A DNA stretch of 64,000 nucleotides from IMG/VR virus record IMGVR_UViG_2526164690_000025. One strand, 5' to 3'. Position numbers and translations under genes: made by a program. The DNA is from a virus. Lineage: Duplodnaviria > Heunggongvirae > Uroviricota > Caudoviricetes. This document shows positions 26,661-61,696 of this stretch, piece by piece; position 1 is the first letter of the stretch, and each line of letters opens with the position of its first letter. The notes under the pieces were generated by a model. It had not been told where the DNA came from and searched no databases. It saw only the letters and a program-made list of their open reading frames with translations.

Positions 26661-27662
26661 TTAAGGCTTCGGCTTTTTATCGAGGCTCTTTCTAAGGATA
26701 TGCCCAATCATCCTGTCGAGTTCTTCCTGTAACTCTTTTGAGAGTCGATTAAACTCATAAGAAAATGCACGGCCTTTCACGCGCTTCCTTGCAAAGCGAT
26801 CCTTATCCTCAAATTTCCATAATTCAGTAACTACGGACTTATCTTTAGAACCTTTATCCGTGAGTAGTGAGGCTTCCTTTGTTATCAAGCGCAGGATTTT
26901 ATTTTTAACTTCATCTTCGGCCATTTCTTCAATGGATAAGATGTCGTTTATTTCCGGGGATATGTTTTGAATAAGCTGATCAAACTCTAAATTCTTGTTC
27001 CCCATTTCGTCGCCAACAGCACAAAGCGTTTTGTAGTCCGAAAAGGTTAATTCCGACTGCACAGGGAAAAGGGCGACTAATTCTTCCGGAGCACTCGCTG
27101 CCTGGAGAGCACGCGTGACCTTCGCCTGAGACAGCCCTTCTTTGGCTGCAATATCCTTCTGACTCATCCCATCATTTTTCATTCGCATCAAACGCAGACC
27201 TATTTCTCGAATGCTGTGCTGCAATGCTGTCTGAACGTCTTTCGCTAAATTTTGCGCTTCCTGAACGCTGATCTCCTGGTCCGTGACTAAAACCCGCAAC
27301 CCTACGTTCTCTAAGATGGCAGAAGCTCGACGCCGGGAACCATCCAAAATTTCAATTTTCCCTGTAGCCCGTCTAACACCTATTGCAGGGTAAAATTGCT
27401 GATGCTTAATAGTGCTTCGGATACTTTTTAATGATTTTGGCGTAAGAGATGCCTGGTCACGCCCGTTGTTATGCTGATCAACAAAGGTATCGCTTTCTAC
27501 CTGGTTCGGAGGTATTACCTCTTCAATAAATGTGGCCTGGCGACCAGTTGATAACTTGAATACCTGCTCGACTCGATCGCCAGAGGCTGAAGAACTATCA
27601 AATCCGCTTAATATTGAAGGATTAAGGGTTCGCCCAATTGTTGGTCTGTTTTTCTTTGACAT
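26661..27662 (-). CDS. parB: partition protein ParB
   Basis: 333 aa; ParB-like, adjacent parS and parA. Confidence 0.85.
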   Translation of the reverse strand: MSKKNRPTIGRTLNPSILSGFDSSSASGDRVEQVFKLSTGRQATFIEEVIPPNQVESDTFVDQHNNGRDQASLTPKSLKSIRSTIKHQQFYPAIGVRRATGKIEILDGSRRRASAILENVGLRVLVTDQEISVQEAQNLAKDVQTALQHSIREIGLRLMRMKNDGMSQKDIAAKEGLSQAKVTRALQAASAPEELVALFPVQSELTFSDYKTLCAVGDEMGNKNLEFDQLIQNISPEINDILSIEEMAEDEVKNKILRLITKEASLLTDKGSKDKSVVTELWKFEDKDRFARKRVKGRAFSYEFNRLSKELQEELDRMIGHILRKSLDKKPKP

Positions 27663-27678
27663 GGGGGTTTCTTACTCC

Positions 27679-28875
27679 TCAGTTAGATCTGATAAATTCA
27701 ATACGGTCAAAAACTGCTTTAGCAAAATCTTCCGCGGCAATTCGCGCGTTCTTCAATGCATCAGCACTACCAACATACGTTGCCGGGTTAGCTGAAATAA
27801 CAGTGTCAAAAGACTCGCCGCAACGTTCAAAACCGTCAAGGCGAGGGAGGACGACATCGAGCATATCCCCACCGAACACTTCTTTAGCCAGGCTATGGCA
27901 ATACTTATGATCTGCCTTGTTACTCAACTTGGACATAAAACCAATGTTAGTCGCAAGCTGGCACTCGCAGCCTTCATCCGAAATGAGTTTCACCAACTCA
28001 GGAAGGCGGGCAACGTATTTAAGCGATGAGTGGAAATCGACAGTTGCTGGCGGCAGAGGTGTAAACAGTATATTGGCCGAGGCCAAAGCATTTTTCAGGA
28101 AGGCGTCAAGGTGAGGACCACTATCAACGAGGATAAAATCATAATCGCTCTTCAGCTTATCAATCACATTTTCTTTCAGGACAGCATGGATGTTCTGACC
28201 CGGTAGATGCTCATTGCACAGCTCTCTCCAATCGGATGCAATAAAGGCATCGTCAATCGACGCAGGCATAACGTCAACCCCAGGTACAACAGAAGGAACA
28301 ATAAACTCCTCTAACAGCTCTTCACGGCTTACATTCTGCAACATAGCCTGTGCAGATGTTGCGTTTACGATACCAATAGAGTGTTTATGGCTTAAAAACA
28401 TAGTTGCTGAAGATTGCGGATCAAGGTCAATAACCAGAATCCTTAAATCTTCCATCAGAAGATGAGGGTGGGCACGCATTGCATGCGCCAGAGAAACCGT
28501 CGATACAGTTTTTGACACACCGCCTTTAAGATTGGAGATGAAAATCACATACGCTTCGCTGTAGCGATCCCGGTATTTTGGCACTCCGCGATGTTCATAT
28601 ATGTCAATGATGTTCTGAATTGACATCGCATATTTCATTGAAGAGCCAGCAGGGCGTTTATCGAAAACATAACCCTTTTCTTCCATTTCACTTACGGCAT
28701 AGTCAACGTTCGCTCGAGTCAGTAGAGGCAATTTTGCCAGTGCCGCTTTCGCATAGACCTGGTAAAACTCGTTCGCGTGTAGCTCATCCTTTTGCAACTG
28801 TACTTGTTCAGTCAGAACATTGAGCATTCTGTTTGCTCTTTGAGCAACCTTGTGAAGCTGGCTGGAATCACTCAT
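27679..28875 (-). CDS. parA: partition ATPase ParA
   Basis: 398 aa; Walker A KGGVSKT; long N-terminal DNA-binding extension as in P1 ParA. Confidence 0.9.
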   Translation of the reverse strand: MSDSSQLHKVAQRANRMLNVLTEQVQLQKDELHANEFYQVYAKAALAKLPLLTRANVDYAVSEMEEKGYVFDKRPAGSSMKYAMSIQNIIDIYEHRGVPKYRDRYSEAYVIFISNLKGGVSKTVSTVSLAHAMRAHPHLLMEDLRILVIDLDPQSSATMFLSHKHSIGIVNATSAQAMLQNVSREELLEEFIVPSVVPGVDVMPASIDDAFIASDWRELCNEHLPGQNIHAVLKENVIDKLKSDYDFILVDSGPHLDAFLKNALASANILFTPLPPATVDFHSSLKYVARLPELVKLISDEGCECQLATNIGFMSKLSNKADHKYCHSLAKEVFGGDMLDVVLPRLDGFERCGESFDTVISANPATYVGSADALKNARIAAEDFAKAVFDRIEFIRSN

Positions 28876-28939
28876 CGAAAGCCATCCTTTATGCTGTATT
28901 TTTGAATTTAATTAAAAATGCTGCATAAAATAATAATGT

Positions 28940-28973
28940 ATGCACAGATGCTTGTACATAGCATTCTCTGCAT
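28940..28973. promoter_or_regulatory. par promoter/operator inverted repeat
   Basis: atgcacagatgcttgtacatagcattctctgcat imperfect palindrome upstream of parA. Confidence 0.4.
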
Positions 28974-29014
28974 GTTTGGTTCATTTTGCACGATTGAGAG
29001 TTACAAGGAGGGCA

Positions 29015-29036
29015 CAAAAAAGCCCCGTTCAGGGGC
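29015..29036 (-). terminator. rho-independent terminator after the T5orf172-like gene
   Basis: gcccc-gttca-ggggc with A7 upstream on plus strand. Confidence 0.5.
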
Positions 29037-29043
29037 ATCAGTG

Positions 29044-29853
29044 TTATTTGCTAAGAGCAGCGAATAATCGTTCGAAATCGATAGTATCTATAGCACGCGT
29101 AAGCGCCGGAAGTTCAGCCTCAAAGTACCCGTGTCGATCGTAAAAGAAGGGACCGAAGAGCGAGGCATGTTGGATTCTACTTCGCCCCAGCCCGGACACA
29201 CAGTTAAGCCCATTACCGGCTAAAAGGCTAAAAAACTTCTCTGGATTATCGTGGTAAAGCTGGGAATCAATGGTGGCGGTTAACTCTTCCATAGGGAAGC
29301 ACACCCGCCTTGTCTCCCAGGGATATTTAGTCCGAAGCATAAACATTGCTTTCAGCAATTCACATTGAGCGCGGATCGCGTCCGGTTCATAGCCAGATAT
29401 GGAGACATAAGCCACGTCCCTCATTCCTGCGTCATCTTTGAAAGTCACGATAGAAGTAACATCCAGCTCTTTTTCGAAAGAGCGAGCAGCATCTACTGGA
29501 CGCTGAAGTAAATCATTCGACTTAATGCGCTCGAGAATCCCTCCCCACATATCATTTAGATATTCGATATGAGCCAAAACCTTATCAAGACACTCTCGTG
29601 TAAACCATTCAGTATGCCCGCCACCGGCGCTTTTCTCCCACGGCGCATTCCAGGGGAAAAAGGTTGCGTGTAAAGCCCGCTCAAGATTAACTATTGCCAA
29701 TCGCGTACCACGATAGACCCGTGAAAGCGCAAAATCGGGACTCACTTGTAGCCCTTTAAACCGTGCCAATGGACCACATGAAATGCCGATTTTAAAAGTA
29801 TCTCCATTCTCCGGCACCAGAACGTAGAGGTAGTGTTGTTTCTCTTCTTGCAT
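29044..29853 (-). CDS. T5orf172/GIY-YIG-like domain protein
   Basis: N-terminal YLYVLV...KIGIS...R...EWF pattern of the T5orf172 domain; 269 aa; inserted between iterons and parA. Confidence 0.5.
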   Translation of the reverse strand: MQEEKQHYLYVLVPENGDTFKIGISCGPLARFKGLQVSPDFALSRVYRGTRLAIVNLERALHATFFPWNAPWEKSAGGGHTEWFTRECLDKVLAHIEYLNDMWGGILERIKSNDLLQRPVDAARSFEKELDVTSIVTFKDDAGMRDVAYVSISGYEPDAIRAQCELLKAMFMLRTKYPWETRRVCFPMEELTATIDSQLYHDNPEKFFSLLAGNGLNCVSGLGRSRIQHASLFGPFFYDRHGYFEAELPALTRAIDTIDFERLFAALSK

Positions 29854-29888
29854 ATCAATACCACTGCTTGATGAGAACCGCGCAAATG

Positions 29889-30144
29889 TTGACTATGCGC
29901 GAAAGTTAATGTGAATAGTTGACTATGCGCGATGTGACTACAGTCAAAAGTTGACTGTAGTCGATTTAACTCCACCAAAGATCGACTATGTAAGATATTG
30001 TCGGGAGAAACGTTGACTATACGCGATGAAATGACCCTAAAAGCCATCTCAATAGCGACTTGCAGAATATTGACGCCAGCAAAAATCCACCAGCGTCAAC
30101 GAATGTCGCCTATAGTCAACTTCTCGCTATCGCATATAGTCAAT
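29889..30144. repeat. iteron array downstream of repA (incA-like)
   Basis: About eight copies of ttgactat(g/a)cgcg-type 13-15 bp repeats in both orientations. Confidence 0.65.
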
Positions 30145-30145
30145 A

Positions 30146-31030
30146 TTATGGATTGCGCTTATGGATCTGGAAGCCGATTTTCCTGCCGTTTTTTATCTCT
30201 GAAAATTTAAGATATTCAATAGCTTCCAAATCTTTCATGGCTTTTCTGATAACGCTATTTTGCACGCTAACGGATGATTTGAGATTAAGCCTTGCTCTAA
30301 GGCGCTCAATGCTGACAGGTGCCGGGTTGGCGGGTAGAGCCTCAAAGAATGTATACAGTACCTTGGCCGTCTCTTTGCGCCCGAGCTTATCCAGCATCTT
30401 CAGCTTCAGGATTCGCTTATAGTCAACATAGTAAAGTTCAGATAGCTGTTTCTGCGGCTGGATCTCGATAACATCAAGCTCGGTATTCAGGCTGCTATAT
30501 GCCAACAAGTTGACGTTAATGTTATTGAGATGACCTTTTGCCGCCGGGAAGCGGAATTTGACAACTGTCTGCTGAATGCGTGTCAGAGAGTCATCAATAC
30601 TTTTACGGAACGCCTTTGAAAGGCGCTTACGTGGATAGCCGCATCGATCGGCAAACTCGGAGAATGGCAGGGTGATTATGCCGTCATCATCAGGTGCGTA
30701 GTCAAACAACGCGGAGGTTATGCCCACCCACACCTTAAAATCAGTATCCATATCCAGGCGTGGACCATGAATTTCAATTCCCTCATAGCCTTCCTGCTCA
30801 ACAATTTTGAGGCTTGATAGTTCTTCGGTTGCGTTCGTTGTGTTTGTAGTAACTGACGATCCGCGACGTAGTGCCACATTGGTAGATTTTAAGGTTGGCA
30901 CAAACACACCTAAGCGCAACAAAGCGATGGGTTGTATAGTGCTATTGTTATTGGGTTTCAGGCTGTGGATTTCTCCTGTATTTCCTGCAACTTCTTCAAC
31001 GCTAAGGAAGCCTTTATTTTCTTCCGGCAT
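30146..31030 (-). CDS. repA: plasmid replication initiator RepA (probable start MPEENKG at 31030)
   Basis: Motifs PIALLRLGVFVP and GPRLDMDTDFK as in P1 RepA; flanked by iterons; ORF 30146-31087. Confidence 0.85.
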   Translation of the reverse strand: MPEENKGFLSVEEVAGNTGEIHSLKPNNNSTIQPIALLRLGVFVPTLKSTNVALRRGSSVTTNTTNATEELSSLKIVEQEGYEGIEIHGPRLDMDTDFKVWVGITSALFDYAPDDDGIITLPFSEFADRCGYPRKRLSKAFRKSIDDSLTRIQQTVVKFRFPAAKGHLNNINVNLLAYSSLNTELDVIEIQPQKQLSELYYVDYKRILKLKMLDKLGRKETAKVLYTFFEALPANPAPVSIERLRARLNLKSSVSVQNSVIRKAMKDLEAIEYLKFSEIKNGRKIGFQIHKRNP

Positions 31031-31089
31031 CGTGGTTTCTCCATATGTGGCGCGGCCTGGCGTCATCTGGATTGCAGTTATCAACAACT

Positions 31090-31330
31090 GTGAATAGTCA
31101 GGCTCTAAAATCGCGTACAGTCAATGTTTCTGTCGCGTATAGTCAACAATAAATCGCGTGCAGTCAACAATAAATCGTGCACAGTCAACATAAAATCGCG
31201 TATAGTCAATGTTGATCCCATTTCAGGCCATAAATGGCGCGGCTTACAGCGATCCGGGATCTTCTTTGGATCTTCCTAGGTTCTCTTTAGGATCTGTTTA
31301 TTGGATCTATGCTGTGGATAAGTTGAATAA
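31090..31330. other. plasmid origin (oriR-like): five iterons, five GATC sites, DnaA box
   Basis: Five cgcgtatagtcaa-type iterons 31111-31213; GATC x5 at 31250-31310; tgtggataa DnaA box 31313-31321. Confidence 0.8.
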
Positions 31331-31363
31331 ACCGGCCAACATAGCCGGTTGGAAGGAAGGGTA

Positions 31364-31756
31364 TTATTCTACGCTTTCGATAAGAAGACCATGTTCATAA
31401 CATTTAAGCTCATCGCCTTCGTACAGAAATTGGTATCCAATACCACCATTTTCATGGACATTAGGGAATAACTCATAACTCACTGAAGAGCAAATCACAC
31501 CAATGCAACGATCAACGCCTTCTCGTTCTTCAGTGCTGAAAAAATCCTCTTCGGTAAGAACATGAGTACATTGCTCATCAGCATAGGTCGGAAATACATG
31601 CTCGATGCAATCCGGGTGTTTTAAACCAAGCTGATCGGCAAGCTCGAAAGCATGACGGTATTGTTCAGATCCTGGCTTGCCAACAGTGATTTGCTCAATT
31701 TTGTAGATTGAAGTCGCTTTGTTGATAGTTTGCTTTACTGTTACTTTATCAGACAT
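31364..31756 (-). CDS. hypothetical protein
   Basis: 130-aa ORF. Confidence 0.35.
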   Translation of the reverse strand: MSDKVTVKQTINKATSIYKIEQITVGKPGSEQYRHAFELADQLGLKHPDCIEHVFPTYADEQCTHVLTEEDFFSTEEREGVDRCIGVICSSVSYELFPNVHENGGIGYQFLYEGDELKCYEHGLLIESVE

Positions 31757-61130: not shown

Positions 61131-61696
61131 TCACTATTACCAAAGAGCGACTGCTGACAATCAAGCAGTGGCGCGAAACATACGGACCGGGTAGCAACGT
61201 TGTACTGCCAGCAGAAGAAGCGGAAGAACTGGCACGAATTGCTCTGGCATCGCTGGAAGCAGAGCCTGTAAACCAAACTTACAACTTACCAGAATTAATC
61301 GAAGGCATGGAAGTTTCCATTGATGTAAGCACTTGTGATGCTGATTTAGGTAATCGCTATTTCGGCACCGTCACCGAGGCGTTAGAACTTGATACAGCCA
61401 AGAATGGTTACATCCTCCTGGTTCAGGACGCAGAGCCAAACTTCGATGTAAATGGCAACTCTCCGGTAACTCCGGATGGCTGGATAAGCTGTAGTGAGCG
61501 AATGCCGGATACCAAAACAGCCGTTCTTGTTGCCAGGGAGTTTGACAGGAAAGGTGACTGGCGAATGAAATGGGCGACTTACATCCCGGGGCATCCTGAC
61601 GCTAATGATGGGTGGGTAATACCTGGTGCGTCGTGGATACCATCACACTGGATGCCGCTACCAGAACCGCCGCAGGAGGCGAAAAGATGGATGTAA
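61127..61696 (+). CDS. DUF551-like prophage protein
   Basis: C-terminal WISCSERMPD...VLV...W...GW.IPG..W.P.HWMPLPEPP pattern. Confidence 0.5.
   Translation: MITITKERLLTIKQWRETYGPGSNVVLPAEEAEELARIALASLEAEPVNQTYNLPELIEGMEVSIDVSTCDADLGNRYFGTVTEALELDTAKNGYILLVQDAEPNFDVNGNSPVTPDGWISCSERMPDTKTAVLVAREFDRKGDWRMKWATYIPGHPDANDGWVIPGASWIPSHWMPLPEPPQEAKRWM

What the first reader, a model, noticed from the sequence alone, without database searches (positions are those of the whole stretch)
29015..29889. T5orf172/GIY-YIG-like gene inserted between the replication iterons and the par operon
In P1-type replicons the iteron array after repA is followed directly by the parA promoter. Here a 269-aa ORF with a terminator (29015-29036) is wedged between them, and its start (29853) abuts the first iteron (29889), so its promoter probably lies inside the iteron array and could be RepA-modulated. 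The N-terminus has the T5orf172-type pattern (YLYVLV...KIGIS...EWF), a GIY-YIG-related fold; the C-terminal 180 aa is unassigned.
Basis: partly seen in the sequence, partly recalled or inferred. Interest (0 to 1): 0.6.

Follow-up and report, generated by a model that had tools for sequence, protein, structure and literature searches.

The report
Nuclease gene riding a plasmid replicon cassette
A real but dispensable nuclease-type gene sits at the edge of the swappable replication module of many P1-like phage-plasmids (common carriers of antibiotic resistance), and it most likely acts as a selfish or competitive DNA cutter rather than as part of the replication machinery.

Summary
Window 29044-29853 (-) is a 269-aa ORF with an intrinsic terminator, starting 34 nt after the last incA-type iteron and ending about 85 nt upstream of the par promoter. 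Its N-terminus is a T5orf172 (GIY-YIG clan) domain. It is not a simple insertion. The window is a p0111-type P1-like phage-plasmid in which the block 28978-31226 (incC iterons, repA, incA iterons, ORF, terminator) replaces P1's IncY block. The ORF family is tiny: four diverged lineages in about 1.8 billion representative proteins. All four lie between repA/incA and parA of P1-like elements, one with an IncY-like RepA. P1 and P7 lack it. repA and the ORF are exchanged as one unit, with the ORF at the cassette edge. Selection on the ORF is about ten-fold weaker than on repA and parA (0.32 vs 0.02 and 0.01). About one natural copy in five is inactivated. The acidic, fast-evolving C-terminal domain is predicted, tentatively, to resemble the WH1 winged-helix domain of iteron-binding Rep initiators. 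Best reading (about 40%): a homing-endonuclease-like or Odn-like competition nuclease linked to the replicon cassette. Its function has not been tested. The gene is already annotated and has been noted as unknown in the literature.

The parts
29044..29853 (-). 269-aa ORF: T5orf172 (GIY-YIG clan) nuclease-like protein with a family-specific C-terminal domain
29542..29853 (-). N-terminal T5orf172 domain (aa 1-104). Motif residues Y10, K21-I22-G23, R31 and E82 (TEWF) are invariant across 18 T5orf172 relatives
29047..29541 (-). [not shown]
29022..29036 (-). Intrinsic terminator after the ORF (GC stem plus U6). A homologous terminator follows the L005 orthologue
29888..30144 (.). incA-like array of six RepA iterons (four in one orientation, two in the other). 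The last one ends 34 nt before the ORF ATG
30146..31030 (-). repA, p0111-type Rep_3/RepFIB-like initiator (294 aa), 43% identical to P1 RepA
31111..31210 (.). oriR/incC array of five iterons at 21-22-bp spacing, upstream of repA
28978..31226 (.). Exchangeable replicon-specificity cassette with no nucleotide homology to P1. Its flanks are 99% and 95% identical to P1
28930..28958 (-). par promoter and operator (P1-type), starting about 20 bp beyond the cassette boundary
26661..28875 (-). parA-parB partition operon, encoding proteins identical to those of P1

Best explanation
The ORF encodes a two-domain DNA endonuclease-like protein: an N-terminal T5orf172/GIY-YIG catalytic domain and a fast-evolving C-terminal targeting or interaction domain. 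The gene is the last element of the exchangeable plasmid-replicon cassette of non-P1/P7 P1-like phage-plasmids (incC iterons, repA, incA iterons, ORF, terminator). It is not part of the replication or partition machinery. It most likely behaves like a free-standing homing endonuclease or like the ICP1 origin-directed nuclease Odn. In that model it is made in the lysogen, either co-transcribed with repA or from inside incA, and so tied to RepA autoregulation. It then cuts related phage-plasmid DNA that carries a different replicon block or none. The cut rival is either destroyed (exclusion or competition) or repaired from the nuclease-bearing copy, which drags the adjacent repA-iteron block along and so spreads the cassette. 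Shown here: the domain identity, the cassette structure and its boundaries, the restriction of the family to this locus, its dispensability and the weak purifying selection. Inferred: nuclease activity, the target, the expression mode and the benefit to the cassette.
Against: There is no gene-level presence/absence polymorphism within the p0111 group: about 391 of 404 plasmids with this repA carry the ORF region. That looks more like a stable passenger than an invading HEG. The cassette boundaries are also explained simply by the conserved flanks (the DnaA/Dam part of oriR, and Ppar) acting as recombination substrates. The C-terminal domain is acidic in all lineages and its predicted recognition helix lacks basic residues, which is atypical for a DNA-targeting domain. 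No target site could be identified. There is no sequence similarity to the neighbouring RepA (hhalign probability 0.1). Synonymous diversity around the gene shows no sweep signal.
Confidence: 0.4

Rival explanations
1. Anti-phage or anti-MGE defence or exclusion cargo. In this reading it is a stand-alone T5orf172 nuclease that attacks incoming foreign DNA and benefits the lysogen, as other accessory genes of P1-like elements do.
For: The nuclease domain is intact. Selection is weak and intermittent, and the gene is often lost. The more distant ~290-aa T5orf172 relatives sit in island-like or mobile contexts, with Mrr/WYL/Ymh neighbours or on a relaxase-bearing plasmid.
Against: There is no PADLOC match. 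The full-length family never occurs outside this one locus, whereas defence genes normally move between contexts. The gene lies inside the replicon cassette rather than in the described variable regions. No partner gene or sensor domain is present.
Confidence: 0.2
2. Replication-control accessory protein. In this reading the Rep-WH1-like C-domain pairs with RepA or with iteron DNA to tune initiation or handcuffing, and the T5orf172 domain is either domesticated as a binding module (as in the PLE repressor CapR) or nicks at the origin.
Against: About 19% of natural copies are inactivated while repA, parA and parB stay intact. P1 and P7 replicate without it. Thousands of RepFIB-type plasmids lack it. 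The C-domain is only 32% identical between two lineages whose RepA is 83% identical and whose iterons are the same. The catalytic residues are retained. Foldseek support for the WH1 fold is not significant.
Confidence: 0.15
3. A passenger gene that no longer functions, hitch-hiking in the replicon cassette and slowly decaying.
For: Nonsense alleles and IS disruption recur, and the nonsyn/syn ratio is elevated relative to the neighbours.
Against: The ratio of 0.32 is still well below 1. Intact two-domain ORFs persist in four lineages that have diverged to 21-64% identity, with invariant active-site motifs and a conserved private terminator.
Confidence: 0.1

Closest known systems
T5orf172-family putative homing endonucleases of ICP1 and other phages (Barth, Dunham & Seed 2023, PMC10448857)
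   Same: Both have a T5orf172 catalytic domain joined to a second, rapidly diversifying domain. Both lie at a boundary of genetic exchange next to essential genes. Both show frequent stops and disruptions among otherwise near-identical genomes.
   Different: The T5orf172 domain here is N-terminal. The partner domain is not a CapR/DUF723-type zinc finger and is acidic. The host is the plasmid-maintenance module of a phage-plasmid rather than a lytic phage. No gene-level presence/absence polymorphism was seen, and homing has not been shown.
Odn (ICP1 Gp88), origin-directed nuclease (Barth et al. 2021, PMC8263062)
   Same: Both pair a T5orf172 nuclease with a domain resembling a replication initiator's origin-binding or dimerisation domain. 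Both occur in systems where replicon modules (initiator plus iterons) are swapped as units.
   Different: Odn's DNA-binding domain has clear sequence similarity to PLE RepA_N, and Odn is encoded by the attacker. Here the resemblance is to Rep_3 WH1, exists only at the level of a medium-confidence predicted fold, and has no sequence similarity to the neighbouring RepA. The gene also sits inside the replicon it accompanies.
P1/P7 plasmid replicon oriR-repA-incA followed by parAB (IncY)
   Same: The layout is the same: five origin iterons, a Rep_3 initiator, a downstream control iteron array in two orientations whose last iteron overlaps the repA stop, and then Ppar-parA-parB.
   Different: RepA is only 43% identical and the iteron sequence differs (p0111 type). 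An 810-bp nuclease gene plus terminator lies between incA and Ppar, where P7 has nothing and P1 has an unrelated 213-bp spacer.
GIY-YIG nucleases with solved structures (SLX1, UvrC N-domain, I-TevI)
   Different: There is no Pfam GIY-YIG (PF01541) hit and no PDB sequence hit. The second motif is K-I-G rather than Y-I-G, and the helix-1 His/Tyr is absent, as in Odn.

Membership tests
Pfam T5orf172 (PF10544; GIY-YIG clan) | Score above the Pfam gathering threshold | tested here: met
   The window ORF scores 26.8 bits against a cut-off of 20. All 4 lineages match, with a best E-value of 3.8e-6.
Pfam T5orf172 (PF10544; GIY-YIG clan) | Conserved motif residues (Tyr of the first strand, K-I-G, Arg, catalytic Glu) | tested here: met
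   Y10, K21, G23, R31 and E82 are invariant in an 18-sequence alignment. Equating E82 with Odn E180 is an inference from motif position.
Pfam T5orf172 (PF10544; GIY-YIG clan) | GIY-YIG-like three-dimensional fold | tested here: met
   [not shown]
Homing endonuclease gene (free-standing) | Nuclease domain joined to a sequence-specific DNA-binding domain | tested here: inconclusive
   The nuclease domain is present. The C-domain has a predicted winged-helix core but is acidic and matches no known DNA-binding family.
Homing endonuclease gene (free-standing) | Sporadic presence or absence at one site among close relatives | tested here: not met
   Within p0111-type plasmids the ORF region is essentially always present (391/404). 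Presence or absence is seen only at the level of whole cassettes.
Homing endonuclease gene (free-standing) | Degenerate or inactivated copies in natural populations | tested here: met
   Among the 43 assessable IMG/VR copies, 7 carry nonsense mutations (S112* in five copies, W68*, Q228*) and 1 carries an IS insertion; plasmid copy L009 adds a stop at codon 17.
Homing endonuclease gene (free-standing) | Cleavage of the HEG-less allele and conversion | not testable with these tools
   This needs nuclease and co-infection or co-residence assays.
Odn-like origin-directed nuclease | Targeting domain homologous to a Rep initiator's origin-binding domain | tested here: inconclusive
   [not shown]
Odn-like origin-directed nuclease | Iteron-dependent cleavage of a replicon origin | not testable with these tools
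   This is a biochemical test.
Known anti-phage defence systems (PADLOC-DB v2) | Match to a defence-protein model | tested here: not met
   No families matched at E <= 1.
P1-type iteron plasmid replicon | Rep_3 initiator flanked by origin and control iteron arrays, with parAB downstream | tested here: met
   Rep3_C scores 27 bits (cut-off 21.1) and Rep3_N scores 21.7 bits (just under 22.4). There are 13 iteron matches against 1.15 expected. ParA and ParB domains are present.

The most novel reading that the evidence does not exclude
The gene may be a 'replicon-warfare' nuclease. In this reading a T5orf172 endonuclease uses a Rep-WH1-like domain to recognise the iteron-RepA complexes of rival P1-like replicons, either directly or by pairing with RepA, and cuts them. 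That would make it a plasmid-borne counterpart of the phage nuclease Odn. It would also be a driver of the IncY <-> p0111 replicon-cassette turnover, and of the success of p0111-type P1-like phage-plasmids that carry resistance genes.
Probability: 0.15. Interest if true: 0.8.

Novelty: new variant of a known kind. Interest (0 to 1): 0.45.

Why it matters
P1-like phage-plasmids are widespread in E. coli and Salmonella and carry ESBL and other resistance genes. They fall into two replicon types, IncY and p0111, and nobody has explained how or why the replicon block is exchanged. This work shows that the p0111 block, and three other diverged blocks, always carry a private T5orf172 nuclease at their edge. 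The nuclease is dispensable for maintenance, evolves quickly, and is found nowhere else. That gives a concrete, testable candidate for inter-plasmid competition or cassette homing. If its C-domain really is Rep-WH1-like, this would be a second, independent case of a T5orf172 nuclease paired with an initiator-like domain. If the gene turns out to be an ordinary accessory nuclease, the finding is only a better annotation of a gene already labelled 'GIY-YIG nuclease family protein'.

Tried and rejected
- **Remnant in P1's spacer.** I looked for a remnant of the ORF in P1's 213-bp incA-Ppar spacer with tblastn at E <= 100 and found only chance matches.
- **Extra iteron past the terminator.** I tested for an extra iteron downstream of the ORF terminator (28979-28993), which would have placed the ORF inside the array. 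It has 5 mismatches to the consensus and was not recovered at <= 3 mismatches, so I dropped it.
- **Similarity to RepA.** Profile-profile comparison of the ORF family with the RepA family found nothing.
- **Sequence assignment of the C-domain.** Pfam and PDB searches with the C-domain, and a PDB search with an 18-sequence profile, gave nothing meaningful.
- **Other libraries.** PADLOC and NCBIfam gave no hits. Rfam over 28500-31500 gave only a sub-threshold chance hit.
- **Promoter.** The sigma-70 scan found no promoter on the ORF strand between repA and the ORF.
- **Unavailable library.** The afdb50 fold library was not available.
- **More family members.** The genome-contig scan added only one near-identical copy. 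PLSDB holds no L003- or L004-type ORF.
- **Intactness by tblastn.** I first read full-length single-piece tblastn hits as '97% intact'. That was wrong, because tblastn reads through stop codons. Direct translation showed frequent nonsense alleles.
- **Composition.** GC content shows nothing foreign: ORF 47.5% against 47.3% for the window.
- **Identity profile against P1.** The window-vs-P1 identity profile shows no striking island next to the ORF.

Full report
**1. What is there**

The window is a P1-like phage-plasmid (Punavirus). The region 28876-30145 is 98.6-100% identical to Escherichia phage RCS47, Salmonella phage SJ46, phi456, JL22 and about 390 E. coli, Salmonella and Shigella plasmids. 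On the minus strand the order is as follows.
- Five origin iterons at 31111-31210.
- repA at 30146-31030, a Rep_3 family initiator.
- Six control iterons at 29888-30144.
- A 269-aa ORF at 29044-29853.
- A GC hairpin plus U6 terminator at 29036-29022.
- The P1-type par promoter at 28958-28930.
- parA and parB.

The iteron consensus occurs 13 times in the window against 1.15 expected by chance.

**2. A replaced cassette, not an insertion**

Against canonical P1, the window aligns at 99.3% up to 28977 and at 95% from 31227 onward. The block 28978-31226 has no nucleotide homology to P1. RepA is only 43% identical to P1 RepA, whereas ParA, ParB and the capsid protein are identical to P1's. This is the replacement of the IncY repA by the p0111 repA described in the literature. 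[quoted passage not shown] Venturini et al. list "2 orfs inserted between repA and parA" (PMC6906374). RefSeq annotates the ORF as "GIY-YIG nuclease family protein", and PHROGs places it in phrog_2876, function unknown. No function has been proposed.

**3. The protein**

The N-terminal domain (aa 1-104) is a T5orf172 domain.
- Pfam scores 26.8 bits against a cut-off of 20, and all four lineages match.
- PHROG 681 "endonuclease" matches at E 1e-9.
- Foldseek against BFVD gives E 1e-4 to phage T5orf172 proteins, including "Hef-like homing endonuclease" and CapR-homology proteins.
- Y10, K21, G23, R31 and E82 are invariant in an 18-sequence alignment of T5orf172 relatives.
- By motif position, E82 corresponds to the Glu whose mutation inactivates the T5orf172 nuclease Odn (PMC8263062). 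That correspondence is inferred.

The C-terminal ~165 aa has no Pfam or PDB sequence match. It is acidic in all lineages (pI 5.0-5.4). Two independent models predict the same alpha/beta topology with a beta-alpha-alpha-alpha-beta-beta winged-helix core.

Foldseek puts the same proteins at the top, but with non-significant E-values of 0.26 or worse. Profile-profile comparison with the neighbouring RepA family finds nothing. I therefore treat the Rep-WH1-like fold as a lead of moderate strength. The tool did not report which residues were aligned.

**4. Distribution**

The family is remarkably narrow. A search of 5.8 billion protein clusters and an exhaustive HMM search of 1.84 billion representatives found only four diverged full-length lineages. 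Identities are to the window protein.

| Lineage | Locus | Identity |
|---|---|---|
| window type | window | 100% |
| P0004 | L003 | 44% |
| P0009 | L004, Salmonella | 28% |
| P0011 | L005, faecal metagenome | 30% |

All four lie between repA/incA and parA of P1-like elements, on the repA strand. In each one the ATG lies 22-34 nt after the last control iteron. L004 has an IncY-like RepA (83% identical to P1 RepA, with P1-type iterons), so the gene is not tied to the p0111 RepA. P1 and P7 lack it. P7 goes from the last iteron to the parA ATG in 109 bp. P1 has an unrelated 213-bp spacer with no ORF remnant. More than 4,600 other plasmids encode RepFIB-type relatives of this RepA without any homologue of the ORF. 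More distant T5orf172 proteins of about 290 aa share only the N-domain and sit in unrelated island or plasmid contexts.

**5. Exchange as a unit**

L003 and L004 have backbones that are 97-98% identical (ParA 100%, ParB 98%, capsid protein 99%), yet RepA is 41% and the ORF 29% identical. The divergent block runs from just upstream of the incC iterons to 84 bp past the ORF stop. These are the same two boundaries seen between the window and P1, where the right-hand boundary lies 66 bp past the ORF stop. The ORF and its terminator are thus the terminal element of the exchangeable replicon-specificity cassette. The terminators of the window and L005 orthologues are recognisably homologous.

**6. 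Selection and dispensability**

I compared 42 IMG/VR copies of the p0111 cassette, collected without regard to their sequence.

| Gene | Synonymous | Non-synonymous | Nonsense | Ratio per site |
|---|---|---|---|---|
| ORF | 31 | 34 | 3 | 0.32 |
| repA | 48 | 4 | 0 | 0.02 |
| parA | 50 | 1 | 0 | 0.01 |
| parB | 82 | 21 | 0 | 0.07 |

Seven of the 42 copies carry premature stops: S112* in five copies, W68* in one, and Q228* in the SJ46 copy. One further copy is split by a ~1.76-kb IS-like insertion, so 8 of the 43 assessable IMG/VR copies (about 19%) are inactivated. A plasmid copy (L009) has a stop at codon 17. Truncated protein clusters in the large database agree with this picture. The gene is therefore under real but weak or intermittent purifying selection and is not needed for plasmid maintenance. 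Between lineages the catalytic domain is 35-64% identical and the C-domain only 21-32%. The C-domain is 32% identical between the window and L003, which share the same iterons and an 83% identical RepA. This argues against the C-domain reading the plasmid's own iterons.

**7. Expression**

No sigma-70 consensus was found on the ORF strand between the repA stop and the ATG. No terminator separates repA from the ORF, and a terminator follows the ORF. With only 22-34 nt between the last iteron and the ATG, transcription must start inside incA or read through from the autoregulated PrepA. Either way RepA occupancy should influence it. This is inference only.

**8. Interpretation**

The identity of the feature is secure: a T5orf172/GIY-YIG-type nuclease gene at the edge of the replicon cassette. 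The most likely mechanism (about 0.4) is a homing-endonuclease-like or Odn-like nuclease that cuts related phage-plasmid DNA carrying a different replicon block. The outcome would be exclusion of the rival or conversion to the nuclease-bearing cassette. This reading fits several facts:
- the domain type;
- the position at the boundary of exchange;
- the co-transfer with repA;
- the fast-evolving second domain;
- the unstable copies.

These are the signatures described for T5orf172 HEGs in phages (PMC10448857) and for Odn (PMC8263062).

Four points count against it. There is no gene-level presence/absence polymorphism within p0111 plasmids. The C-domain is acidic. No target site was identified. 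The conserved flanks alone could explain the cassette boundaries.

The rivals are a defence or exclusion cargo gene (0.2), a RepA- or iteron-interacting replication accessory (0.15), and a decaying passenger (0.1).

**9. Novelty and verdict**

The gene and its T5orf172 annotation are already in public records, and its co-replacement with repA has been noted in the literature. Five things are new here:
- the family is confined to this single locus across four diverged replicon lineages, one of them IncY-like;
- it is the terminal element of the exchangeable cassette, with reproducible boundaries;
- it is dispensable and frequently inactivated;
- its C-domain may be Rep-WH1-like;
- the result is a specific, testable competition or homing hypothesis.

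I rate it a new variant of a known kind, of moderate interest.

Noticed in passing
L002 5133-5271 (P1 NC_005856 about 61346-61484), the P1 counterpart of window ~28978-29887: P1's own spacer between incA and the par promoter is 77-79% identical to sequence beside IS605-type insQ/ddrA in RCS47 and SJ46, and to sequence in Morganella and Aeromonas phages. It contains an 8-bp-stem hairpin. It looks like a small mobile-element-derived repeat. P7 has no such spacer, so the incA|Ppar junction is a recurrent site of insertion.
   Followed up: partly
window 30413-30427: There is an iteron-like site (one mismatch to the consensus) inside the repA coding sequence.
   Followed up: no
L053 4295-6057: In one IMG/VR copy the nuclease gene is split by a ~1.76-kb insertion carrying 389-aa and 141-aa ORFs (IS200/IS605-like by size only). 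The insertion is accompanied by a 229-bp deletion of the gene.
   Followed up: partly
window 43553-45072: This stretch is a second copy, 82% identical, of the P1 immI region (c4-icd-ant, P1 48193-49721). The 97.5% identical copy starts near window 15810.
   Followed up: no
window 30070-30100: There is an imperfect palindrome, TTGACGCCAGC...CCAGCGTCAA, built from iteron half-sites in the middle of the incA-like array. Only its left half is conserved in L003.
   Followed up: no
public records matching window 29044-29853: Annotation of this gene is inconsistent. Phage phi456 (OR339795) labels it 'terminase small subunit'. PLSDB/MOB-suite types the p0111-type P1-like plasmids as replicon 'IncHI1B'.
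   Followed up: no
L005 5993-6142 vs P7 (L010 2430-2545): The metagenomic lineage L005 combines a third RepA and iteron type and its own nuclease gene with a P7-type par promoter and par genes. This shows that the replicon cassette and the par module assort independently.
   Followed up: partly
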